This document shows, piece after piece, positions 3,679 through 21,318 of a stretch of 64,000 nt of DNA. The position numbers and the translations under genes were made by a program. The notes under the pieces were generated by a model. The model had not been told where the DNA came from, made no database searches, and saw only the letters and a program-made list of their open reading frames with translations. The stretch's first letter is position 1. Every line of letters starts with the position of its first letter. The DNA is from a virus: positions 14,596 through 78,595 of the IMG/VR virus record IMGVR_UViG_3300024520_000049; one strand, 5' to 3'.

Positions 3679-4266
3679 ATGGGGAATAAGCCAGGTACAC
3701 TCGTGCTGGCAAAGAATGCCGTCTCAGCTGCTGCCAAAGTAATTTTGCGCATCGCGTCAGGGCAGTCATACAAGGTCGGCGGCGAGGAGTTGGCTGAAAG
3801 ACTCCGTCTGTGCTACGCCTGCAAGGAGCACTTTAACCTGGAGACACGCGAGTGCTTTGACTGCGGCTGCCCGGTGCACTCAAAGACAATCCTCGCTACG
3901 GAATCATGTGGTATCGGTAAGTGGCAAGCCTTGGCGGCGGCCCCAAGCGCGGCTACAGGTGCAGTGATTACTGGGGCGGATCTTCTTGAATATGAGCTGG
4001 AGATCAGAGAGCTCTTACCTGGGACCAGTAATCTCGCCCAGGCGTTCAACAGATTTCGGCATACGCAGGAGGAAGCGGGGTGCACCAGCTGCCGGGAACG
4101 GCTGTATCATAAGGATTTTGAGAAACAGCTTAGCCGCGATATTGCGCTTATGTCTGTGGCGGATATCGAAGAGCTTCGCAAGATATTGCCGAATAAAGAG
4201 TACATCAGTCTGTCTTATCCGTATCGCTGGGACGAGATTCTTGAAAAGGCCGCAGCGAGAGCGTAA
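3679..4266 (+). CDS. Cys-rich putative zinc-finger protein
   Basis: RLRLCYACKEH...CFDCGC...CGIGKW plus a second CTSC. Confidence 0.6.
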   Translation: MGNKPGTLVLAKNAVSAAAKVILRIASGQSYKVGGEELAERLRLCYACKEHFNLETRECFDCGCPVHSKTILATESCGIGKWQALAAAPSAATGAVITGADLLEYELEIRELLPGTSNLAQAFNRFRHTQEEAGCTSCRERLYHKDFEKQLSRDIALMSVADIEELRKILPNKEYISLSYPYRWDEILEKAAARA

Positions 4267-4294
4267 AGTATCAGAACACTAGGGAGTACACTAA

Positions 4295-4855
4295 ATGGAA
4301 ACTTTGAATTACAATTTACTACGACAAGTTCAGGAAGGTTTAAGGGAGAAAAAGGCGTTTGTCCCAATGCCTGGCGGCCAGGCTGAGCCTGTCGCCGGCG
4401 CCTCCCCAATGACAGCAGGAATGGGCGCCCCAATGGGTCCCGGTGGCGGAATGCCCCCAGGCGGCGATCCGGCAGCTGGCGGCGGCGCACCGCCGATGGA
4501 CCCTGCAGCTATGATGGGCGCGATGCCCCCGGGTATGGACCCTTCTATGATGGGTGTAGACCCCGCGACAGGGATGCCAATAGGCGCACCACCCGCCGGT
4601 GCTGAGGGTGAAGAAGCCGGCGCTGCGCCGGCCGAAGCCCCGGAACCTCCCTTCACTCTTGACGATATTCGAAGTGTGATGAAAGACGAAATTGCTCAAG
4701 CGCTGAAGGGGTTTTCCCCTTCGTCAGCAGAGCGTGGTGACGGTGAGTCTAGCAGCAAGCCTTCTTCCAGTAGTGAAGGCGGCGGCGAAGGTGGAGATCT
4801 GTCCTCCGAAGTCCGCGAGCTGACGGCTACTTTGAGGCAAGCATTAGGGATGTAA
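4295..4855 (+). CDS. Pro/Gly/Met-rich low-complexity protein, possibly head-associated
   Basis: GGGAG RBS; EKKAFVP followed by a long PPMDPAAMMG/GMPIG tract. Confidence 0.6.
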   Translation: METLNYNLLRQVQEGLREKKAFVPMPGGQAEPVAGASPMTAGMGAPMGPGGGMPPGGDPAAGGGAPPMDPAAMMGAMPPGMDPSMMGVDPATGMPIGAPPAGAEGEEAGAAPAEAPEPPFTLDDIRSVMKDEIAQALKGFSPSSAERGDGESSSKPSSSSEGGGEGGDLSSEVRELTATLRQALGM

Positions 4856-4859
4856 ACGA

Positions 4860-5117
4860 ATGGCGACTCGAGTTGTAGTGCGGAGCGCGAATCTGTTCCA
4901 ACCACCCATACTTGATACTGACGAAGCCCGAATCATGGAGTTCTACGATTGTAACGGCGATCTCGTAGCGCTGATGGGTAAGATCTTCAGCGATGACTTC
5001 TGGGCATTTAGCACAAAAAATGATAACGATTGGAACGAAGCCCTGCTACGTGCGGGGTATTTGGGTAAGACTCGTTATGAGTCTCGTCCGGTGGAGATCA
5101 CCGGAGCACACAGCTAA
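4860..5117 (+). CDS. Hypothetical protein
   Basis: 85-aa ORF filling the operon gap. Confidence 0.55.
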   Translation: MATRVVVRSANLFQPPILDTDEARIMEFYDCNGDLVALMGKIFSDDFWAFSTKNDNDWNEALLRAGYLGKTRYESRPVEITGAHS

Positions 5118-5126
5118 GGATTGAAT

Positions 5127-5585
5127 ATGGCCAATATTGACGCAAACACTGTAATAATCATCGTAGCCGCTATCGGGCTTATAATTTACAAAATCATCAA
5201 CTACCAGATCGAGAAAGGGAAGACAGACCCCATCTTGCAGGCGTTTAAGGATGTCGGAGAGACGCTGGCGAAGGAGATGAAAGACAGCCGCACGATGATG
5301 GAGAAAGCCGCGTCCGCGCGCCGTAAGGCGGATGAGGTGGCACATAAAGAACTGGTAGAGCTGCTGCACCAGAACCTGAATGTGTCAAAAAAGACCCTGG
5401 ACATGCATGAAAAGTTCGACGAGAACGGGCTTCCTTTATGGTATACTCCCAGGGATTGGCAGAAGACGCAGGAGACGATCCTTCAGGTCTGCTCCACGAT
5501 ATCTGATACGCAGCGAGATATCGCGCATATACTGGAAACGATGACGAAGACACTCGATAAGCTCGAGGGTACGACTAAGGAGTAG
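5127..5585 (+). CDS. Hypothetical N-terminally anchored membrane protein
   Basis: VIIIVAAIGLIIYKII transmembrane segment then helical region; ATG 5127 follows AAGGA. Confidence 0.6.
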   Translation: MANIDANTVIIIVAAIGLIIYKIINYQIEKGKTDPILQAFKDVGETLAKEMKDSRTMMEKAASARRKADEVAHKELVELLHQNLNVSKKTLDMHEKFDENGLPLWYTPRDWQKTQETILQVCSTISDTQRDIAHILETMTKTLDKLEGTTKE

Positions 5586-5587
5586 CA

Positions 5588-7897
5588 GTGCCACTTCAAA
5601 CTACAATGGGCCAATTACTGGTAAACGAAGCGCTGCCGCCGCAGTACCAGGATCATAACCGCCAACTTATCGGGGGCGCGCTTGATGACCTTCTCGGCCA
5701 GATTGGGCGCGAGAACCCAGAGCTCTACCGCGACATCTCCCACAAACTCATGGAGCTGGGGCGGCACACCGCCTACGAGCAAGGCACCACCATCAGCCTC
5801 TCTGACCTGCAAGCTCCGTCTGAACTTCGCAAGGAAGTCTTCGCACATGTGGATAAGCAGGAAGCAGTTATAGACAAGTCAAACCTCTCCCCGGCCGAAA
5901 AGGCCCAAGCCCGTGCGGAGGTTTATGGTCAAGCGCAGAAGCTACTCACCGATGAGACATATGCACATGCGCAGAAATCTGGCAATCCCCTGGCGCTTCA
6001 GGTACTCTCCAAAGCGCGTGGTAACCCGACGCAGCTTGCGGCCATGCTCTCTACCCCTGGCACGTTCCAGGACACCAAAGGGAACACGATCCCCATCTTT
6101 GTCCGCCGGAGCTATGCTGAAGGGCTGACGCCAGCCGAGTATTATGCCGCAACCTTCGGTGCGCGGCGTGGAGTTGTCAGCACAAAATTCTGCCTCGCAG
6201 AGGGTTCCGAAGTTTTGATGGCGGATTATTCGGTAAAATGTATCGAGGATGTGAATGCTGGTGATACGGTTTTTACGGTCGACGACAACATGAAAATGGT
6301 GCCCACAAAAGTGGTAGAGACGTTCAACAATGGGCTGCGGGAGTGTTGGGATTTTAAGTTCAGACAGGGACGATCACGCAGCGAGTTTGTGTCTATTAGG
6401 GCAACAGAAGACCATAAAGCGGTTATGTCCAGGAAAAAGGGTAAGAACCGTGTTAGCGAGAAAGAACCCCTTAGCAAGGCCCACCGTGGCCGCCGGGCGA
6501 TACACCTGGCCGCCGGGGAGCACTCGACCACTGGCAATAGGTTCCACTCCAAAACGTACCTGGGAGCCGTGCATACTTACGATCTGGAAGTGGCACACGA
6601 AAGTCATAACTTCGTTTTAGCGAACATGGCAGTAGTGTCAAATTCTACACGCGACGCTGGTGATTTCGGCAAGCAGCTCAATGTTGCCGCAGCAGACCTG
6701 ATTGTCACCGAGGCCGACTGCGGGACTGTTAACGGTATTCCTGTCGGGATCGATGATAACGACACAGTGGGCGCTATCCTGGCACGCGGGTCTGGCGGGT
6801 TTAAGCTGGGAGCCCCTGTAGGCCCCAAGATGCTGAAGTCATTGAAGCAGAACAAGGTGGACAAGATTTTAGTCCGCTCACCAATCACCTGCCAAGCCCA
6901 AGGCGGTGTGTGTAAGCACTGTGTCGGCTTGCGGGAGAACGGTAAGTTCCCCGAACTCAGGTCCGCTGTGGGGATCCAAGCATCCTCGGCCCTGGCTGAG
7001 CGCATTGCCCAAGGGAGCTTGAATGTAAAACACTCTGGCGGCCAATCCGCCAAGGGTGAAGCCACCTACGCGGGTTTCAACATCATCAATCAAATCGGCC
7101 AGATACCCTCAGCTTTCCGACACAAAGCAATCTTATCGGAGCAGGACGGTTTGGTCACCAAGATTGAGCCTGCGCCACAGGGCGGCACCAACGTGTACAT
7201 CGGCGAGGAGCTGCACTACGTGGAGCCGGAGCAGGCAGTGACTGTTAAGGAGGGGGACGACCTCGAAGCTGGTGATCAGCTGGCCACGGGTATTGTCAAC
7301 CCGGCAGAAGTCGTGCGCCATAAAGGTATTGGCGAAGGTCGACGATATTTCGCGGAACGGTTGACCCAGGCGTTCAAGGACAGTAAGTTAAAGGCCAACA
7401 GGCGTAACACTGAATTGATAGCACGAGCGGTGATAGACCATGTGGATGTCGAAGAACCTTCCGGTCTGGGTAATTTTTTGCCAGGTGATGTGGCCTCGTA
7501 CAATAATCTGGCATACAGCTATAAGCCCCGAGCCGACGCAGGTGCGTTTCGGCCGACTAAGGCCGTGGGTCAGTATTTGGAGCAGCCCGCACTGCACTAC
7601 ACCATTGGGACTCGAGTAACAAAGAAGATTGCTAAAGAGCTTGAAGGATTTGGAGTAAATACGGTTACCGCACACAGCCAGCAGCCTGGGTTCACCCCTC
7701 GGATGATACGCCTGCGCGCGGTACCTCATTACGGGAAGGATTGGATGGCCAAGTTGCACGGCAGCTATTTACAGACTAACTTGCTTAAGGACGTGCAAGA
7801 GGGTTCCCAATCTAATATTCATGGAACACACCCGGTACCTGGGATCGCGTACGGCGCGGAATTCGGCGAGAGCAAGAAAAATAAGGTAACATTCTGA
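5588..7897 (+). CDS. rpoC: DNA-directed RNA polymerase beta' subunit, C-terminal half, intein-containing
   Basis: TTMGQLLVNEALP (RpoC TTxGxxxxN), SYAEGLTPAEYYAATFGARRGV (bridge helix), DLIVTEADCGT, RSPITC...GVCKHCVG (beta' Zn site II), ALAERIAQGSLNVKHSGG (trigger loop); AAGGAG RBS and GTG start. Confidence 0.93.
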   Translation: MPLQTTMGQLLVNEALPPQYQDHNRQLIGGALDDLLGQIGRENPELYRDISHKLMELGRHTAYEQGTTISLSDLQAPSELRKEVFAHVDKQEAVIDKSNLSPAEKAQARAEVYGQAQKLLTDETYAHAQKSGNPLALQVLSKARGNPTQLAAMLSTPGTFQDTKGNTIPIFVRRSYAEGLTPAEYYAATFGARRGVVSTKFCLAEGSEVLMADYSVKCIEDVNAGDTVFTVDDNMKMVPTKVVETFNNGLRECWDFKFRQGRSRSEFVSIRATEDHKAVMSRKKGKNRVSEKEPLSKAHRGRRAIHLAAGEHSTTGNRFHSKTYLGAVHTYDLEVAHESHNFVLANMAVVSNSTRDAGDFGKQLNVAAADLIVTEADCGTVNGIPVGIDDNDTVGAILARGSGGFKLGAPVGPKMLKSLKQNKVDKILVRSPITCQAQGGVCKHCVGLRENGKFPELRSAVGIQASSALAERIAQGSLNVKHSGGQSAKGEATYAGFNIINQIGQIPSAFRHKAILSEQDGLVTKIEPAPQGGTNVYIGEELHYVEPEQAVTVKEGDDLEAGDQLATGIVNPAEVVRHKGIGEGRRYFAERLTQAFKDSKLKANRRNTELIARAVIDHVDVEEPSGLGNFLPGDVASYNNLAYSYKPRADAGAFRPTKAVGQYLEQPALHYTIGTRVTKKIAKELEGFGVNTVTAHSQQPGFTPRMIRLRAVPHYGKDWMAKLHGSYLQTNLLKDVQEGSQSNIHGTHPVPGIAYGAEFGESKKNKVTF
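6191..6643 (+). mobile_element. Mini-intein (151 aa, no homing endonuclease) in RNAP beta' bridge helix
   Basis: Begins CLAEGSEVLMADYS..IEDV..GD (block A), has ATEDH (block B TxxH) and YDLEV..HNFVLAN (block F), and ends VVSN before +1 Ser. Removal restores a continuous bridge helix STKF|STRDAGDFGKQL. Confidence 0.93.
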
Positions 7898-8733
7898 TGA
7901 GCTATTTGACAGGGAAGTACTTGAAGAAGCAAGCCGCCTTGGAAGTTGTTCAACCAGCAGCAAAGGCTGGCTCAAAAGGCCTCCTAAAACTTCTGACCGC
8001 ACTTGGCCTGGTTGGCGGCGCTGCTGGGTCGATACCCGCAGCTGGTGCTTTGGGTGCGGGTGAAGATAAGCGGATTGGTGGCGCAACTTTAGGGACCCTT
8101 GCAGCGGCCCCCGGAGCTCTGGCCGGCGGCATTGGCGGCGGGGTAGCTGGTGAGAAGCTTCTTTATCCGTTGCTCGAGAAATTAAAGATGCTCCGCGGTA
8201 TCTCCCCCAGCGCTCCTGGCGTGCTCGGAGCTTTAGGTGGATTAGGCGCCGGCGCGCTGGGCGCCTCCTATATGGCAGGTGGTGCACTTCGGGATAAAGA
8301 GTCCTCGTACGCAGAAGGCTTTATCGCCAAGTGTGCTGAGCACGGGGTGGATTTGGTGGCTGCAACTAAAATGGCGCAAGAAGTAGCCGGTGCCGCCGCA
8401 GGCGGACTAGCTGGAGCAGCACTCGGCGGAGGGGTTTTGGGTGCGAATGAACTAGGCCGCCTAGCTTTAATGAACATACACAATGACACTTTTGCACGCA
8501 CTGTAGCGGACCCCTTCAGCGATGCCGGGCACGTTCTACGCGGAGCTGCCCGTAAGGTTACGCCACCAACCACGGACACAGAGATGCTGCACAAATTGAT
8601 GGCCGTTATGCGATATCTTAAGAAAAACCCGCTTAAGGTAGTAGGTGCACCAACCGCCGCGTTGGCTGGGGCCGGCGCTGTCGGTGGTTACGGCCTTAAG
8701 CAGTTAATTAACAGTTTGACAGACAAAGACTAG
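7897..8733 (+). CDS. Glycine-zipper-rich putative head/ejection protein carrying YAEGFIAKCAEHGVD tag
   Basis: Several GxxxG hydrophobic tracts; KKQAA near N-terminus; TGATG coupling to rpoC C-half. Confidence 0.65.
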   Translation: MSYLTGKYLKKQAALEVVQPAAKAGSKGLLKLLTALGLVGGAAGSIPAAGALGAGEDKRIGGATLGTLAAAPGALAGGIGGGVAGEKLLYPLLEKLKMLRGISPSAPGVLGALGGLGAGALGASYMAGGALRDKESSYAEGFIAKCAEHGVDLVAATKMAQEVAGAAAGGLAGAALGGGVLGANELGRLALMNIHNDTFARTVADPFSDAGHVLRGAARKVTPPTTDTEMLHKLMAVMRYLKKNPLKVVGAPTAALAGAGAVGGYGLKQLINSLTDKD

Positions 8734-8742
8734 GAGTAAGAC

Positions 8743-11088
8743 ATGACAAAGCTGAAGGACCTACTCGCTGAGCCGGAATACTCCGCGGTAAAACTATCCG
8801 CCGAAACTCCGGACAACCAGCAGGTCGAACGGGACTTCGGCCGGCTGGCTTACGCATTTTTGAAAGACCGCGCAACCCCGCTCGTACCCTACTTGGTAGG
8901 TTTTGAAGTTGTGGAGCAGGAACCTGATGGCTCTCGCGCCGTGGGGATCTTCGGCTTTCGCATCTCCAGCTCGTTCTACTACGTGCCGGTGTTCTTTCTG
9001 AACAACCAGATCAAGGGCATGGACATGCTGTACTCTAAAGAGGAGAAGCATTTTGTCCCGCTCCGCGAGCCGTGGGTGAACCATATCCTTAACCGCAAGA
9101 CGATCGAGCTGGGCCAACCAGCTTCCGGTGTGGTCAAGAAGGATTTCAGCGTGCCTGACTACACCTTCCTCTCCCGCCCACCGCTGGGCGGTAGCTTGAA
9201 GCTGTCTGAAGCAGGGCGCGGGATCTATGAAGTGTGGAATACCATGCAGAAAGAAGCCGTGAACATGCTCAACAATGATCCTGAGTTTGGCAAAGCTCTC
9301 GCCGGCGCGGTCACTACGATGGCCAAGCAGGCCTCACCCAGGGCTTCCGGCCAGACACGTTTAACGACGTATCTGGAGAACCAAGGCGGTCCAGACGCCG
9401 TGGCGTCGCTGCTCGATAAGATCGGGTCTGACATGGTGTTTATGAAAGCCGCCAACTGCTTCTATGACTACCACGATCTGATGATCACAGAGTTCGCTGC
9501 ATCCTTGGCGCCGAAGACCGCAGCCTCTAAGATTAAGGTTGTGACGGAGACTGATGGTGATGGCCCCATCGCCTGCTGTGACGAGGAAGAGAAGCGCGAG
9601 ATTGTGCGCGACGGGTTCACGATTGTGGACAGTCGTGATGAGGAGGAGAAGTCGGAAGTTTATGATATCGACTATCTCACTTGTGTGGGCAATCCAAACG
9701 TCACAGGCAAGTACGATCTTATTCTGGCCAGCGGGATCACCACTCCGGTATTTGTCGTCAATATCCCCTACGGGACTGACAGCCAAGGCATGACTTTGGT
9801 CGTGCACCCAGATACCGGCCGGTACTTTACCGCGGCTAACCGAATTGTTTATGTCCGAGACGGGATCAAGGAAAAGGCTGATAATGATCAGCTGTACACC
9901 GACGACCGCACGGTGGATGTTGAGAAGATGGACGTCGGCGAACACTATATCTTGGTGGATGAGAAGGGTTGCGCAAGTCTACCGTTTCGCGTCGCTGCCT
10001 CGGTTAGTGAAGACAATGACATCGTCCGCATTAAAGCTGACTGGAAAGACAGCATCACTTACGAGGATCGCGACACCACGCCCGGCTACGAGAAGATGAC
10101 AGGCCCTGACTACAAGGCCTGCTACTCCATCGACTCATATAGCGATAGCTACCTAATTATAACTGACCGCCGTGGTGAGCTTAAGAAGAGTGGCAACAAC
10201 GTGGTTGTACCGACGCAGCAGTGGAAGGCGTACAAGCTGGAGGTGCCAGATGACTATCAAGATCGTCAGGCGCAGAAGGAAGCCTTCCGTCCCGCCTCAT
10301 ATGTGGATATCATCGAGTCCATGAACAAGATCGCCTTCCACAAGGTGCAGGTTGAATCTCGCGATCAGGGCGTGGCGTTCAACATCACGCTGGACGGCCT
10401 GCTTGATAAAGAAGCCATGGGCTATAAAGAAGCCACCATCACGCTGGTTGACCGATACGGCTTTCCAGTCAACAAAGCCCAGGCGGTGCTTAAGGAAGCC
10501 GCCGAAAAGCTGAAGTCTAGACGACTGGTGCTGCTTAAGTCTGCTCAGCAGGTAGTTATGCCCCAGGAGCCGCCGCAGTACATTGGGTTCGATCAAGAGC
10601 TTGGAGTACCAGTGCAGCCCTCGCAGCAAGACTATGTGTCTGGCCAGACCGTCGGTATGCCCAAGCCGGAGCCCGGTGGCCCTGGCTCTGGTATCAATAT
10701 CGGCGGCGAAGGCGCACATCAACAAGCCATGGGCGGCAGTGGCGAAATGCCTGAGGACGCCACGCAGTTGGCAATGGAAGCCGCCCAAGCTGGACAGCAG
10801 CAAGTATTTGATCACGCTGTCATTGGCGGGCTCAGCCGCGTTTACGACACATCCGCCACTATTGATGGCTTCATCCCTGAGCTGATGACGGCTCTGGACC
10901 GCACTGGGCGCATTCTCTTCCTCTTCTACTGGAAGAACGAAGACTTCGCTGAGCGTTACGGCGACCAGGATCTGACGGAGATGGAAGACCATATCCGTGC
11001 GGTGTTCAAGTCCCTCGGCGATCTGGTGCTGAAGCTTAAGCAGAAAACAATTGATGCTGAGGAGGCTGAATATGTCCAAGGTGGTTGA
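8743..11088 (+). CDS. Large hypothetical protein, probably virion head-associated
   Basis: 781-aa ORF with GGAG RBS; K-x-A/S motifs at apparent domain boundaries (VKLSAE, KQASP, KTAAS, LKSAQQ). Confidence 0.6.
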   Translation: MTKLKDLLAEPEYSAVKLSAETPDNQQVERDFGRLAYAFLKDRATPLVPYLVGFEVVEQEPDGSRAVGIFGFRISSSFYYVPVFFLNNQIKGMDMLYSKEEKHFVPLREPWVNHILNRKTIELGQPASGVVKKDFSVPDYTFLSRPPLGGSLKLSEAGRGIYEVWNTMQKEAVNMLNNDPEFGKALAGAVTTMAKQASPRASGQTRLTTYLENQGGPDAVASLLDKIGSDMVFMKAANCFYDYHDLMITEFAASLAPKTAASKIKVVTETDGDGPIACCDEEEKREIVRDGFTIVDSRDEEEKSEVYDIDYLTCVGNPNVTGKYDLILASGITTPVFVVNIPYGTDSQGMTLVVHPDTGRYFTAANRIVYVRDGIKEKADNDQLYTDDRTVDVEKMDVGEHYILVDEKGCASLPFRVAASVSEDNDIVRIKADWKDSITYEDRDTTPGYEKMTGPDYKACYSIDSYSDSYLIITDRRGELKKSGNNVVVPTQQWKAYKLEVPDDYQDRQAQKEAFRPASYVDIIESMNKIAFHKVQVESRDQGVAFNITLDGLLDKEAMGYKEATITLVDRYGFPVNKAQAVLKEAAEKLKSRRLVLLKSAQQVVMPQEPPQYIGFDQELGVPVQPSQQDYVSGQTVGMPKPEPGGPGSGINIGGEGAHQQAMGGSGEMPEDATQLAMEAAQAGQQQVFDHAVIGGLSRVYDTSATIDGFIPELMTALDRTGRILFLFYWKNEDFAERYGDQDLTEMEDHIRAVFKSLGDLVLKLKQKTIDAEEAEYVQGG

Positions 11089-11332
11089 GGAAGCCTACAC
11101 ACAAGGGTTCATTGACAAGTGCGCTGAGCACGGCGTCGACGCAAATGCGGCCAAAGCTTTGCTGGATAAACCAGACGAAGCGCCGCTGAAGAAGACCAAA
11201 AGCATGAGCCCAGCACAAGTGGCCAAGTATCGTGCGGAGCAGCACAAGAAGATTGATCAGCAGCGCCCTGGCGCGGGCCTGGCCGCCCGAAGTGTGCTAA
11301 AGCACATCAATTCACCAGCAGGGCACAGGTGA
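11072..11332 (+). CDS. Small basic protein with YTQGFIDKCAEHGVD tag
   Basis: ATG 11072 follows GGAGG; shares an N-terminal motif with 7897 and 11336. Confidence 0.65.
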   Translation: MSKVVEEAYTQGFIDKCAEHGVDANAAKALLDKPDEAPLKKTKSMSPAQVAKYRAEQHKKIDQQRPGAGLAARSVLKHINSPAGHR

Positions 11333-11335
11333 GCC

Positions 11336-11752
11336 GTGGATAACCCATACATACAAGGCTTCATAGAGAAGTGCGCCGAGCACAGCATCGACCCCGAAGA
11401 GCTGATTAAAGCAGCTTTCCGTGGAGATATCCTACGCCGAGCGCTGGCGGCGGTAAATCCCGCCGCAAAATTGTCCTTCGGCACGGGTAAGCTATTTCCG
11501 GCTAAAGGGACAGCTTCATACCTGGAAGGCATGTACTCCAACCCAGGCCGCTATGCCACTGAGCTGAACGCAATCGAGCACCCCGCGCTTCGCAGACCTT
11601 TCGCGAATCCTGGGCAGGCTCAAGGCGTTCGGGATCACTGGGCGGGAGTCTTAAAACAAGTGAGGGCCGCGCTCAAAGCCGACAAGCAGCCAATAGCGAG
11701 CGAAGCACTGGTGTCCAACGCCCCAGCAAACGTGGCGGGTACATGGAAATAG
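11336..11752 (+). CDS. Small protein with YIQGFIEKCAEHSID tag
   Basis: Motif directly followed by ELIKAAF (K-x-A). Confidence 0.65.
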   Translation: MDNPYIQGFIEKCAEHSIDPEELIKAAFRGDILRRALAAVNPAAKLSFGTGKLFPAKGTASYLEGMYSNPGRYATELNAIEHPALRRPFANPGQAQGVRDHWAGVLKQVRAALKADKQPIASEALVSNAPANVAGTWK

Positions 11753-17181: not shown

Positions 17182-18681
17182 ATGCCAACTGTAGATCAAA
17201 TTCTTAACGACACTCGCGCGTTCGTGAAAGAGAAGCAGGCCAGCTTCCGGAAAGGCGCGGCAGAAGAAGCTCTGTCCAACCCCGGCTCGATTCCTGGCTC
17301 TGTCCATGATTCGAACGTCGACGCTTCTATGCAAAACTCTCATCCCGAAACCCAGCAGGAAATTCCCGCTGGGTCCAAAGTCCGCTCTGGCGCTACTGAC
17401 GGTGAGGACCTCGAGTCAGGTCACGCCACCAATGCCCTTGAGCCGATTCCGGGTGTAACTCAAGAACCCCTCGAATCTGCTGATGCGCTTGGTGGGAATG
17501 TGGGCTCCAGTACAGTGGGCGATCAGGCTCACGACGGTACCGCGGGCGCGCTTGGTGATGAAAGCCGCTCCACTGAGGGTACTCCAGCCACCCATAAACA
17601 TCCCGCTGCCAAGCATGCGAATGATCTGTTGTCTATGATTAGTCAGCACAATGCGCAGCAGAAAGCAGCCGCTGCCCCGGCACCCGGCACCGCGCCGGCG
17701 CCAACAAAAACTGCTGCTCCCGCCGCCCCAGCACCTGCTGCACCCACCCCAGCGCCGACAAAAGCGGCTGCTTGTGAGTGTGGCAAGGACGACTGCACGG
17801 CGTGCAACAAAGTCGCTGGCGACACAAAGCACGCTGGTGAAATTGAACTCACCCAGGATGTCCTGTCCAAGATTGCATCTGTGATCCTCAGCACCGAAGA
17901 AGGTTGGGCCTTTGCCGAAGCGCAAATGTCGAAAGCCGCTGGTGCCGACGCAGCCCGCGAGACTATTCAGTTTCTCGAGCAGCAGGCGCTGGAGGCTGAA
18001 AAGCAGGCCGCGTATGCTCAAGGGCAGACAGACGCCGACAACCTAATCAAAGCTGCTGTGTATGAAGCAGGCCGCGCTGACGCAGCGGCTGCCGCAAGCC
18101 CAGTTGCCCCACAGGCCCAGGCGGGCTCTGTTGTCAGCCAGCTCAAAGCTGCTGCTGCTCGTTACCGCCAGCAGACTCCTGCAACTAATGTTAAGGGTCT
18201 TCAAGATCTTGGACGCGAAGTTGCAGAACAGGCTGTGAAACAGGCGCAGGATCTGGCCGCCGCCCTCGGTGGCGGTGCCCCGGCCCCTGAGGTGATGCCT
18301 CCCGAAGCTGGCGGCGAAGATCTCGACGCCGCAGCTGCGGAAATGGCTGCCCCTCCAATGGAAGGTGGTGGTGAAGAAGACATCAGCCCTGAAGAACTGG
18401 AACAGGCTCTCTCAATGATGGCCCAAGAAGGTACCATCGGCCCAGAGGACGTCCAGGAGATCTTGGCGTATCTGGAACAAGCTGGCGGTGCTCCCGAAAT
18501 GGGTGGTGCCGAAATGGGTGGTGCCGAAATGGGTGCTCCAGCCCCTCCGCCCCCAGCACCCGCACCTGCCGCAGAAGGCGGGGGCGACGAAGCCGCAGAA
18601 GATGAATCTGGGATGGAAGCCTACGCAAGCGCTAACCCGCTTGTCCAAGCTATCCGCCGGGTCCAAGCTAAGAACAAGTAA
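17182..18681 (+). CDS. Probable capsid scaffolding protein
   Basis: Acidic Ala/Pro/Glu-rich, largely disordered or helical; between protease and MCP; strong AAGGAG RBS; 14 of 21 lysines are K-x-A. Confidence 0.65.
   Translation: MPTVDQILNDTRAFVKEKQASFRKGAAEEALSNPGSIPGSVHDSNVDASMQNSHPETQQEIPAGSKVRSGATDGEDLESGHATNALEPIPGVTQEPLESADALGGNVGSSTVGDQAHDGTAGALGDESRSTEGTPATHKHPAAKHANDLLSMISQHNAQQKAAAAPAPGTAPAPTKTAAPAAPAPAAPTPAPTKAAACECGKDDCTACNKVAGDTKHAGEIELTQDVLSKIASVILSTEEGWAFAEAQMSKAAGADAARETIQFLEQQALEAEKQAAYAQGQTDADNLIKAAVYEAGRADAAAAASPVAPQAQAGSVVSQLKAAAARYRQQTPATNVKGLQDLGREVAEQAVKQAQDLAAALGGGAPAPEVMPPEAGGEDLDAAAAEMAAPPMEGGGEEDISPEELEQALSMMAQEGTIGPEDVQEILAYLEQAGGAPEMGGAEMGGAEMGAPAPPPPAPAPAAEGGGDEAAEDESGMEAYASANPLVQAIRRVQAKNK
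18494..18538 (+). repeat. 15-nt tandem repeat x3 (CCGAAATGGGTGGTG) encoding EMGGA
   Basis: Directly visible; third copy slightly degenerate. Confidence 0.9.
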
Positions 18682-20754: not shown

Positions 20755-21318
20755 ATGGACCAGGTACTCGGATTCGCGCCAGACACAAACTGGCTGGAAG
20801 GCTTCGCCAAAGCAGCAGAGGACGCTGGCATTTGCGGAGAACAAGCTGTTGCAGAGCTTCTCAAAGCTGCAAGCCGCATCAAGCTGATGCAAGAAGATCC
20901 AAATTTCACTGCCGGCTATAACGCAGAGCTGGAGAAGAGTGCGCAAGCTGGCGGTATCGCCGGCGCGCTGTCTAAGCTAAAAGCACCAGGCCTCGTCGGT
21001 GCTGGTGCCTTGGGCGCAGGAGCAGGCTACGGTATTTACGATTACCTCAAGCGCCGCTGGGGCCGGAACCTGGAAGACCAGGAAATGACACGTTGGCATG
21101 AAGCGCTCGCCGACAGCGGGCTGCCTACCTGGCAGAAGAACCTTCTCAGTCGCGATCGTTTAGGTCAGGAGCACACCAAGCACCGTCAAGCAGGCTCTGC
21201 ATTCCGTAACTTCGGAGGCGGGGGCGGTCATCGTCACGGCGGAGGTGGCGGCTACGGCACTCGCCCGTACGATCACGATTCTTACTATACCCCATGGTGG
21301 CAACGCAGGCGGAACTAG
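20755..21318 (+). CDS. Glycine-zipper protein with cleavable-looking leader and Gly/His/Arg-rich tail
   Basis: WLEGFAKAAEDAG..LKAAS..ELEKSAQ leader, GLVGAGALGAGAGYG hydrophobic tract, basic aromatic C-terminus. Confidence 0.6.
   Translation: MDQVLGFAPDTNWLEGFAKAAEDAGICGEQAVAELLKAASRIKLMQEDPNFTAGYNAELEKSAQAGGIAGALSKLKAPGLVGAGALGAGAGYGIYDYLKRRWGRNLEDQEMTRWHEALADSGLPTWQKNLLSRDRLGQEHTKHRQAGSAFRNFGGGGGHRHGGGGGYGTRPYDHDSYYTPWWQRRRN

What the first reader, a model, noticed from the sequence alone, without database searches (positions are those of the whole stretch)
8308..11392. Shared 15-aa tag YxxGFIxKCAEHxxD on three otherwise unrelated proteins
Seen: YAEGFIAKCAEHGVD (8308-8352, internal), YTQGFIDKCAEHGVD (11096-11140, N-terminal) and YIQGFIEKCAEHSID (11348-11392, N-terminal), with a weaker WLEGFAKAAEDAGI at 20791. 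Flanking sequences are unalike, and a K-x-A site follows in most cases (TKMAQ, IKAAF, LKAAS). Known: T4 internal proteins share a short, cleaved capsid-targeting sequence. Inference: a capsid-targeting or docking peptide, possibly metal- or disulfide-linked through Cys/His, that loads diverse cargo into the head.
Basis: partly seen in the sequence, partly recalled or inferred. Interest (0 to 1): 0.78.

Follow-up and report, generated by a model that had tools for sequence, protein, structure and literature searches.

The report
Shared docking module on phage proteins
A 27-residue helix-turn-helix module, absent from the domain libraries searched, heads at least nine otherwise unrelated small proteins of this uncultured 190-kb phage and hundreds more in its relatives, and probably acts as a common handle that brings them into the virus particle.

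Summary
The three copies sit exactly where stated. The unit is about 27 residues: [ND][DE]AYxQGF[IMV]DKCAExGVDPExLhKxA.

- **Copies:** the complete 190,498-bp phage genome holds ten copies in nine genes. A profile search of 1.84 billion proteins found 421 clusters. Of 156 proteins examined, 86% carry it within 12 residues of the N-terminus and 11% carry 2-3 copies.
- **Carriers:** with the module masked, the carriers share no similarity. Their remainders are basic (median net charge +8) and rich in Gly, Ala, Lys and Pro.
- **Fold:** AlphaFold2 predicts a confident helix-turn-helix.
- **Cataloguing:** no Pfam, PHROG, NCBIfam or PDB match, no cultured phage and no true match in bacterial genomes.
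- **Context:** 12 of 13 contigs examined belong to one uncultured phage clade that encodes its own RNA polymerase. In two complete genomes the genes lie in three conserved islands: after the portal gene, around a 781-aa virion-protein gene, and beside an InPase polyvalent protein.

The best reading is a portable docking handle for virion-internal proteins, working like the T4 capsid-targeting sequence. This is not proven. Cys is near-invariant but His is not, so a Cys/His metal site is not supported. K-x-A belongs to helix 2. The fourth copy, at 20791, is not significant.

The parts
7897..8733 (+). Gene for a 278-aa Gly/Ala-rich (glycine-zipper) protein that carries the module internally. Its start overlaps the stop of the RNA polymerase beta' C-half gene.
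   Evidence: ORF list. The module envelope covers residues 135-162 at i-E 4e-14. Relatives with the same architecture exist (P0078, P0103, P0149).
8299..8382 (+). Module copy 1 (ESSYAEGFIAKCAEHGVDLVAATKMAQ), internal.
8743..11088 (+). Gene for a 781-aa conserved virion-protein homologue, around which module genes cluster in relatives. It is a neighbour and a candidate partner, not a carrier of the module.
   Evidence: Its N-terminus matches Arash gp218 (tblastn E 2e-7), an abundant virion protein by mass spectrometry. There are 37 homologues, all metagenomic. Module genes flank it in L007, L008, L012, L016, L027, L033, L034 and L035.
11072..11332 (+). Gene for an 86-aa protein with the module at residues 6-30 and a basic tail. 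It overlaps the end of the 781-aa gene by 17 nt.
   Evidence: The orthologue P0002 is 62% identical overall, and 66% in the part outside the module.
11087..11161 (+). Module copy 2 (EEAYTQGFIDKCAEHGVDANAAKAL), N-terminal.
11336..11752 (+). Gene for a 138-aa protein (GTG start) with the module at residues 2-29. It belongs to a widespread subfamily in which 'ARGDxL' follows the module.
   Evidence: AlphaFold2 predicts helix 4-15, a turn, then helix 20-40, with pLDDT 90-98 over residues 1-30.
11339..11422 (+). Module copy 3 (DNPYIQGFIEKCAEHSIDPEELIKAAF), N-terminal.
20755..21318 (+). Gene for a 187-aa glycine-zipper protein with the 'weak' look-alike NWLEGFAKAAEDAGI at 20791. Membership of the family is not established.
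   Evidence: The family HMM gives no significant match. The orthologue in L008 keeps the shape (SWLEGFVVEAEQSGV) but lacks K-C. Similar Cys-less forms occur in the divergent relative L039.

Best explanation
The peptide is the core of a portable, acidic helix-turn-helix module of about 27 residues. Its consensus is [ND][DE]-A-Y-x-Q-G-F-[IMV]-D-K-C-A-E-x-G-V-D-P-E-x-L-h-K-x-A, with a net charge of about -3. It is specific to one uncultured clade of 170-210-kb phages that encode their own multisubunit RNA polymerase.

The module heads a varied set of small, mostly basic, low-complexity or glycine-zipper proteins. Their genes sit in three conserved islands of the virion-morphogenesis region.

The most likely function is a common docking handle. 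It would bind one shared partner in the assembling head, such as the scaffold or core, the portal, or the 781-aa protein. That would recruit the different tails into the particle as internal, probably ejected, proteins. This is how the T4 capsid-targeting sequence and the P22 scaffolding helix-turn-helix work.

**Shown here:** the module, its copy number, its predicted fold, its portability, its restriction to this clade and its gene context.

**Inferred:** that it docks onto a partner, that the partner is in the prohead, and that the proteins end up in virions. Whether it is cleaved off is unknown.
For: 1. **Portable module.** With the module masked, the ten carrier proteins of this genome share no similarity (best E 0.098). 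The module occurs N-terminally (134 of 156 proteins), internally, C-terminally and in 2-3 copies. It is fused at least once to an unrelated domain, DUF3008.
2. **Strong purifying selection on the module.** In 173 copies, G7 is 100% conserved, C12 99%, F8 and A13 97%, K11, G16 and D18 95%, Y4 94% and L22 92%. The three window copies differ at synonymous sites.
3. **The tails are functional too.** They are conserved among orthologues, at 41-71% identity outside the module for the closer pairs compared. 90% have a net charge of +3 or more, with a median of +8. This resembles DNA-associated internal head proteins.
4. **Fold.** AlphaFold2 predicts helix 4-15, a turn, then helix 20-40, with pLDDT 90-98 over residues 1-30.
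5. **Multi-copy in each genome.** Nine matches in this genome (eight distinct places plus a terminal-repeat duplicate) and eight in an independent complete 176,839-bp genome. Up to five consecutive carrier genes occur in L007.
6. **Context.** 12 of 13 longer contigs examined share this clade's gene order: RNA polymerase beta'-C, module genes, the 781-aa gene, module genes, then the 337-, 460- and 477-aa genes, the 499-aa scaffold-like gene and the major capsid gene.
   - The portal homologue (Arash gp204, E 2e-59) is followed by module genes both here and in the distant genome G003, where six follow it.
   - A third island lies beside an InPase/DUF192 polyvalent protein. The PHROG families that match its InPase domain include several named minor head protein or virion structural protein.
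7. **Relatives package many proteins.** The nearest cultured relative, Arash, has 116 virion proteins by mass spectrometry, including RNA polymerase beta, beta' and sigma. Its gp218, the homologue of the 781-aa protein, is abundant (PMC10585845).
8. **Sign of a shared partner.** The one freely variable position inside helix 1 (position 15, His in this genome) agrees among copies of the same genome far more than chance: 50% against 16% (0 of 5,000 shuffles reached it). Without this genome it is 38% against 17% (p = 0.003). Positions 10, 17, 20, 25 and 27 show no excess and positions 5, 9, 21 and 23 only a weak one.
Against: - There is no direct evidence that any carrier protein is in a virion, and no cultured member of the clade exists.
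- Arash, the only relative with a virion proteome, lacks the module.
- The partner is not identified.
- Some clade members show no module genes in the slot next to the 781-aa gene (L038 and L039).
- Internal, C-terminal and repeated copies do not fit a simple cleaved N-terminal leader.
- The putative prohead protease rests on weak matches only: phrog_2774, of unknown function, at E 9e-11, and phrog_18299 at E 0.012. Pfam families S77 and S78 gave no hit.
- The position-15 concordance is driven by a few genomes. Two of them (L013 and L016) appear to be related contigs with the same gene arrangement, and the shuffle test ignores phylogeny.
Confidence: 0.5

Rival explanations
1. The module is a homo- or hetero-oligomerisation domain. 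The hairpins of the different family members pack against each other, possibly locked through the conserved Cys. They would build one composite assembly with many different tails, such as an inner body, an ejection complex or a membrane-active bundle. There would be no separate receptor. This overlaps with the main explanation if the assembly is inside the head.
For: The predicted hairpin has Y4, F8 and C12 on one face of helix 1. It is too small to be stable alone. Some proteins carry 2-3 copies, including two adjacent copies in P0039. The Cys is near-invariant, while Cys is almost absent elsewhere in these proteins (0.1%). The within-genome concordance at position 15 is what a self-complementary interface would produce.
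Against: Packing between modules could not be tested, because only single-chain predictions without contact output were available. Some copies in this genome lack the Cys (KLAEHG at genome position 4074). An acidic module with net charge about -3 would repel itself unless bridged.
Confidence: 0.2
2. This is an ordinary diverged paralogue family. One small structural gene was duplicated many times, and the N-terminal hairpin is the only part conserved well enough to recognise. It would have no addressing role.
For: Carrier genes are often tandem, with 2-5 adjacent. That is how duplications look. Tails share a compositional bias towards Gly, Ala, Lys, Pro and Arg.
Against: No residual similarity remains outside the module. 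Yet each carrier has its own orthologues with well-conserved tails, up to 71% identical. The module changes position within proteins, is repeated within proteins, and is fused to an unrelated Pfam domain. Carrier lengths range from 59 to 613 aa.
Confidence: 0.12
3. The module is a handle for a partner outside the virion. It would bind the phage RNA polymerase or a host factor, and the small basic proteins would act as regulators or host-takeover factors inside the cell.
For: Two islands abut RNA polymerase genes: a 79-aa carrier lies just before the beta gene, and the 278-aa carrier lies just after the beta' C-half gene. Small basic proteins with a shared handle could be a set of polymerase or nucleic-acid cofactors.
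Against: In the nearest cultured relative the RNA polymerase subunits are themselves among the most abundant virion proteins. Being next to polymerase genes is therefore still a virion context. All carrier genes are co-directional with, and embedded in, portal, head and tail genes. Many tails are glycine-zipper or low-complexity, not regulator-like.
Confidence: 0.1
4. The module is a leader peptide for post-translational modification or export, recognised by an enzyme. It would work like a RiPP leader or a secretion signal, with the Cys as the modified residue.
For: It is a conserved N-terminal peptide with an invariant Cys on many variable 'cores'. One subfamily (P0006, P0007) has a pilin-like GFTLLEL hydrophobic segment right after the module.
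Against: No modifying enzyme or export gene recurs next to the carrier genes in the contigs examined. The conserved Cys lies inside the leader-like part, not in the variable part. The module is predicted to fold as a hairpin and also occurs internally and C-terminally. The tails are long and basic, not RiPP-like.
Confidence: 0.03

Closest known systems
Bacteriophage T4 capsid-targeting sequence (CTS) of internal proteins IPI, IPII and IPIII
   Same: A short N-terminal peptide is the only thing shared by a highly diverse set of small, basic internal proteins. In T4 it addresses them to the scaffolding core of the prohead (PMC3012670). Here too, the only shared element of diverse, basic small proteins is an N-terminal unit.
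   Different: From my own knowledge, the T4 CTS is about 10 residues, has no defined fold, is strictly N-terminal and is removed by the gp21 protease at an (L/I)-x-E site. The module here is about 27 residues and is predicted to fold as a helix-turn-helix. It also occurs internally, C-terminally and in repeats. No cleavage is shown. I recognised no sequence resemblance to the T4 CTS as I recall it; no alignment was run. Encapsidation is not shown.
Phage P22 scaffolding protein gp8, C-terminal helix-turn-helix coat-binding domain (residues about 271-300)
   Same: [quoted passage not shown] It can carry foreign cargo into the shell (PMC9962691, listed). The size and predicted secondary structure match the module here.
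   Different: The P22 element is C-terminal and belongs to a single scaffolding protein. From my own knowledge, it binds coat protein through basic residues. The module here is acidic, mostly N-terminal and shared by many different proteins. No sequence match was found in the PDB.
Encapsulin cargo-loading peptides
   Same: A short conserved terminal peptide on unrelated cargo proteins directs them into an HK97-fold shell (my own knowledge).
   Different: Those peptides are short, extended and usually C-terminal, and they occur in prokaryotic nanocompartments. This comparison was not tested here beyond the absence of Pfam and PDB matches.

Membership tests
T4-type capsid-targeting sequence (CTS) | The only element shared by otherwise unrelated small internal proteins | tested here: met
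   Masked all-against-all BLASTP of the ten carriers finds nothing better than E 0.098.
T4-type capsid-targeting sequence (CTS) | Short (about 10 residues) and strictly N-terminal leader | tested here: not met
   The conserved unit is about 27 residues and is predicted to be a folded hairpin. 22 of 156 proteins have it beyond residue 12, and 17 carry 2-3 copies.
T4-type capsid-targeting sequence (CTS) | Removed by the prohead protease at a defined site | not testable with these tools
   No proteomic data exist for any clade member. K-x-A and C-A-E are conserved but lie inside the helices. The protease assignment is weak.
T4-type capsid-targeting sequence (CTS) | Carrier proteins are present inside the head | not testable with these tools
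   Only gene context and the virion proteome of a distant relative that lacks the module are available.
P22-type scaffolding helix-turn-helix coat-binding domain | Helix-turn-helix of about 30 residues | tested here: met
   AlphaFold2 predicts helix 4-15, a turn, then helix 20-40, with pLDDT 90-98 over residues 1-30. This is a prediction only.
P22-type scaffolding helix-turn-helix coat-binding domain | C-terminal position on the scaffolding protein, with a basic binding face | tested here: not met
   The module is N-terminal in 86% of proteins. The consensus has five acidic and two basic residues. The 499-aa scaffold-like protein carries no copy.
Catalogued protein domain (Pfam-A 2025, PHROGs v4, NCBIfam 20, PDB sequences) | A significant profile match covering the module | tested here: not met
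   No family matches more than 2 of 150 members. The window proteins have no hits. PDB matches are chance, with best E 0.08 over 10 residues.
RiPP-type leader peptide | A dedicated modifying enzyme encoded next to the precursor genes | tested here: not met
   Called genes around carrier genes on 13 contigs are virion and RNA polymerase homologues or have no Pfam domain. No recurring enzyme was seen.

The most novel reading that the evidence does not exclude
The module is the address label of a previously unseen protein-loading system. One receptor in the prohead of this RNA-polymerase-carrying phage clade would read a folded, Cys-bearing 27-residue hairpin, and so load about eight to ten different basic or glycine-zipper proteins per genome into the head for co-injection with the DNA. 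The receptor and the label would co-evolve, as position 15 suggests. The label would then be a transferable handle for packing arbitrary cargo into these capsids.
Probability: 0.35. Interest if true: 0.75.

Novelty: new variant of a known kind. Interest (0 to 1): 0.62.

Why it matters
Apart from the T4 capsid-targeting sequence and a few scaffold-derived tags, I know of little that explains how large phages select the many proteins they package with their DNA. This module is well suited to testing that question:

- It is short, sharply conserved and probably folded.
- It marks a whole set of candidate internal proteins in an uncultured clade of 170-210-kb phages that encode, and by analogy with Arash probably package, their own RNA polymerase.
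- It gives a search key for this clade in metagenomes (421 clusters already found). The clade is nearly absent from the IMG/VR copy searched (three contigs besides this one) and absent from the cultured-phage collection.
- It defines a new domain family that could be added to the domain databases.
- If it is a loading tag, it offers a compact handle for cargo encapsidation.

Tried and rejected
- **Domain libraries.** Pfam, PHROGs and NCBIfam scans of the window's carrier proteins and of 150 family members found no family covering the module.
- **PDB sequences.** A profile search found only chance 10-residue matches (CAEHGIDP in Asgard tubulin, IDQCAEHGLD in 2-oxoglutarate decarboxylase).
- **Bacterial genomes.** The single hit, in Amycolatopsis, covers the DKCAEHGVD stretch. 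It looks like the chance match to the actinobacterial 2-oxoglutarate decarboxylase seen in the PDB search, though I did not check which gene it lies in.
- **Fold searches of the 138-aa model.** BFVD gave nothing below E 2.4, and no PDB chain reached Z 5.
- **ESM Atlas.** No usable hit.
- **Cultured phages.** tblastn gave only noise, and the Arash genome has no copy.
- **IMG/VR.** An exact-pattern scan gave one false match on a giant-virus-like contig. The profile-guided scan found three true contigs.
- **Literature.** A string search for the peptide found nothing.
- **The 781-aa neighbour.** Pfam, NCBIfam, a PDB profile search and tblastn against phages found nothing. The AlphaFold2 model (pLDDT 69) gave only weak similarity to trypsin-like beta-barrels, and the alignment has no invariant His or Ser. 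I therefore rejected the idea that it is an active protease.
- **Portal idea.** I first took the 781-aa protein for the portal. I dropped this because the intein-bearing 1039-aa protein at genome 704-3823 is the homologue of the Arash portal.
- **Terminase and prohead protease.** Pfam families PF03237, PF17289, PF03420 and PF04586 gave no hits in the genome.
- **Cys/His metal site.** Rejected as a family feature, because His is present in only 25% of copies.
- **SAP/HeH-like DNA binding.** Considered from the helix-G-x-D-P-helix shape, then set aside because the module is acidic.


Full report
**1. The observation**

A six-frame scan of the window finds Y-x-x-G-F-I-x-K-C-A-E-H at 8308, 11096 and 11348 on the + strand, and nowhere else.
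- The first copy is residue 138 of a 278-aa Gly/Ala-rich protein (7897-8733).
- The second lies 8 residues into an 86-aa protein (11072-11332).
- The third lies 4 residues into a 138-aa protein (11336-11752, GTG start). An in-frame stop two codons upstream of that start forces the N-terminal position.
- The DNA of the three copies differs at synonymous third positions. The peptide itself is being conserved, and this is not a recent DNA repeat.

**2. More copies in the same genome**

The window is part of a single-contig virus record of 190,498 bases, rated 100% complete.

A profile built from the strong copies and iterated on the six-frame translation finds further copies:
- one at the N-terminus of a 192-aa protein at genome position 107; this one is duplicated at the other contig end, where the last ~440 bases re-occur at genome 56-496;
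- two in a 179-aa protein (3864-4403);
- one each at the N-terminus of 93-aa (4432), 79-aa (8952) and 63-aa (80912) proteins;
- a weak one inside a 389-aa protein (4697-5866; i-E 5e-4).

That makes ten module copies in nine genes.

The look-alike at window 20791 gets no significant score. Its orthologue keeps the general shape without K-C. A divergent relative has similar Cys-less forms. It may be a degenerate version, but I do not count it.

**3. The carriers are not full-length paralogues**

With the module masked, all-against-all BLASTP of the ten proteins gives nothing better than E 0.098 in a ten-sequence database. Yet each carrier has its own orthologues elsewhere, with conserved tails:
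- the 86-aa protein against P0002: 66% identity outside the module;
- the 93-aa protein against P0031: 71%.

The tails are therefore distinct, functional parts. They are not debris from decayed duplicates.

**4. The family**

A 33-column profile (A3) was searched against 1.84 billion representative proteins. It returned 421 clusters at E <= 1e-3 and 22 at E <= 1e-10.

Of 156 proteins examined:
- 134 carry the module within the first 12 residues;
- 17 carry two or three copies;
- a few carry it at the extreme C-terminus;
- lengths run from 59 to 613 aa, with a median of 150.

The consensus over 173 copies is [ND][DE]AYxQGF[IMV]DKCAExGVDPExLhKxA[QA].

| Position | Conservation |
|---|---|
| G7 | 100% |
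| C12 | 99% |
| F8, A13 | 97% |
| K11, G16, D18 | 95% |
| Y4 | 94% |
| L22 | 92% |
| P19 | 89% |
| E14 | 86% |
| K24, A26 | 82% |
| Position 15 (His in this genome) | H 25%, Y 20%, L 19%, A 13% |

The K-x-A that 'follows' it belongs to the unit's second helix. The module is acidic, with five D/E and two K in the consensus.

The rest of these proteins is basic. 90% have a net charge of +3 or more, with a median of +8. They are rich in Gly, Ala, Lys, Pro and Arg and almost free of Cys (0.1%). Only 6% have a strongly hydrophobic segment.

**5. Fold**

AlphaFold2 was run on the 138-aa protein with a 141-row alignment. It predicts helix 4-15, a four-residue turn (S-I-D-P) and helix 20-40, with pLDDT 90-98 over residues 1-30. 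Y4, F8 and C12 fall on one face of helix 1. D18-P19 reads as the N-cap of helix 2 (inference from the sequence pattern). Fold searches gave nothing useful, as expected for a hairpin.

**6. Not catalogued**
- Pfam-A, PHROGs and NCBIfam do not cover the module.
- PDB sequences give only chance matches.
- The peptide strings occur in no paper of the library.
- No cultured phage carries it.
- Only three IMG/VR contigs besides this one carry it.
- No bacterial genome of 185,579 species has a true copy. It therefore does not appear to be a prophage feature.

**7. Whose genes these are**

I compared the neighbours of carrier genes on 13 longer contigs with this genome. Twelve share its gene order: RNA polymerase beta' C-half, then carrier genes, the 781-aa gene, more carrier genes, the 337-, 460-, 238- and 477-aa genes, the acidic scaffold-like 499-aa gene, the 121- and 177-aa genes, and the 329-aa major capsid gene.

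One contig (L007) has five consecutive carrier genes.

The capsid protein, the 477-aa protein and the N-terminus of the 781-aa protein have distant homologues in Salmonella phage Arash. The intein-bearing 1039-aa protein at genome 704-3823 is the homologue of the Arash portal, gp204 (E 2e-59).

In this genome the portal gene is followed by the 179-, 93- and 389-aa carriers. In the independent complete genome G003 (176,839 bases; portal 46% identical), six carrier genes follow the portal gene. G003 also has carriers flanking the 781-aa homologue, and one near the homologues of genome 79164, 80238 and the InPase protein.

There are therefore three conserved islands, all in virion-gene surroundings, and about eight module matches per complete genome.

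The InPase/DUF192 protein belongs to the kind of polyvalent protein whose matching PHROG families include several named minor head or virion structural proteins.

**8. What the nearest cultured relative tells us**

The Arash paper (PMC10585845) reports 116 proteins in purified particles. RNA polymerase beta gave the highest spectral count. Beta', sigma and gp218 (1149 counts, close to the capsid protein's 1333) were also present. Phages of this wider group therefore load many proteins into the head. Arash itself has no copy of the module, so the module is an invention of the uncultured clade.

**9. A hint of a shared partner**

Position 15 is the only freely variable residue inside helix 1. 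Copies within the same genome tend to agree there:
- all copies together: 50% of within-genome pairs against 16% after shuffling (0 of 5,000 shuffles reached it);
- without this genome: 38% against 17% (p = 0.003).

Positions 10, 17, 20, 25 and 27 show no excess, and positions 5, 9, 21 and 23 only a weak one. Whole-module gene conversion or recent duplication should affect all variable positions. A contact residue that tracks a genome-specific partner, or tracks the other copies, would affect one.

The sample is small. Two of the contributing contigs appear to be related, and the test ignores phylogeny. I treat the result as suggestive only.

**10. Interpretation**

What is shown: a portable, strongly conserved, probably folded module on diverse basic proteins, encoded in virion-gene islands of one phage clade.

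The best-supported mechanism is a common docking handle that recruits these proteins into the assembling head. This is how the T4 capsid-targeting sequence works, which is likewise 'the only conserved' part of a diverse set of internal proteins (PMC3012670). It is also how the P22 scaffolding helix-turn-helix works, which sits on the inner procapsid wall (PMC9965877).

The module is not a member of either family. It is longer and more structured than the T4 leader and is not strictly N-terminal. Unlike the P22 element, it is acidic and N-terminal.

Alternatives that remain open:
- the hairpins bind each other and build a mixed assembly;
- this is simply a diverged paralogue family;
- the handle serves RNA polymerase or a host factor.

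Cleavage, encapsidation and the identity of the partner could not be tested here.

**11. Verdict**

The capsid-targeting reading is plausible and fits the context, but it is unproven. The metal-site and cleavage-site details are not supported. The module is a new domain family and most likely a new variant of a known principle.

Noticed in passing
genome 704-3823 (outside the window, L001:704-3820): The homologue of the Arash portal protein (E 2e-59) is 1039 aa here but 654 aa in relative L030. The extra part matches the Intein_splicing and Hint_2 families below Pfam's cut-offs, so the portal gene probably carries an intein.
   Followed up: partly
window 8743-11088: The 781-aa protein is not the portal. 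Its N-terminus matches Arash gp218, an abundant virion protein. The AlphaFold2 model (pLDDT 69) has beta-barrel domains with weak similarity to trypsin-like proteases but no invariant His or Ser. The C-terminal 100 residues are the most conserved part across 41 homologues.
   Followed up: partly
L002:2517-4340 (genome 81112-82938): A 608-aa protein has an InPase domain (PF18823, E 4e-55) and DUF192 (E 1e-22). This is the kind of domain found in polyvalent virion or injected proteins. It lies directly after the 63-aa module gene.
   Followed up: partly
genome 1-496 and 190003-190498: The last ~440 bases of the contig re-occur at genome 56-496, though the two contig ends are not an exact repeat. 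The first module gene (genome 107-685) is therefore partly seen twice. This suggests a terminal repeat or a circular assembly.
   Followed up: partly
P0006, P0007 and P0044 (metagenomic relatives; L013 and L016): One subfamily carries three module copies. After the first copy comes a segment resembling the type IV pilin N-terminus (K-G-F-T-L-L-E-L-L plus a hydrophobic stretch).
   Followed up: no
L039:18175-19579 (divergent relative, 27% identity in the 781-aa protein): A 296-aa gene next to the scaffold-like gene holds three degenerate, Cys-less look-alikes (AYKQGFLKSAQEA, AYIEGFFRAAKE, AYYEGVFEKAAQYGL). The next gene holds one more. This may be an older or decayed form of the module.
   Followed up: partly
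window 17182-18681: The 499-aa protein before the capsid gene is strongly acidic and rich in Ala and Pro, with a GGAEM repeat near its end. It looks like a scaffold. Its charge is opposite to that of the basic tails of the module proteins.
   Followed up: no
genome 5805-8950 (L001): Between the portal-proximal module genes and the 79-aa module gene lie several proteins with glycine-zipper, membrane-like segments (146, 166 and 568 aa). They have homologues in the same position in relatives L020 and L030.
   Followed up: partly
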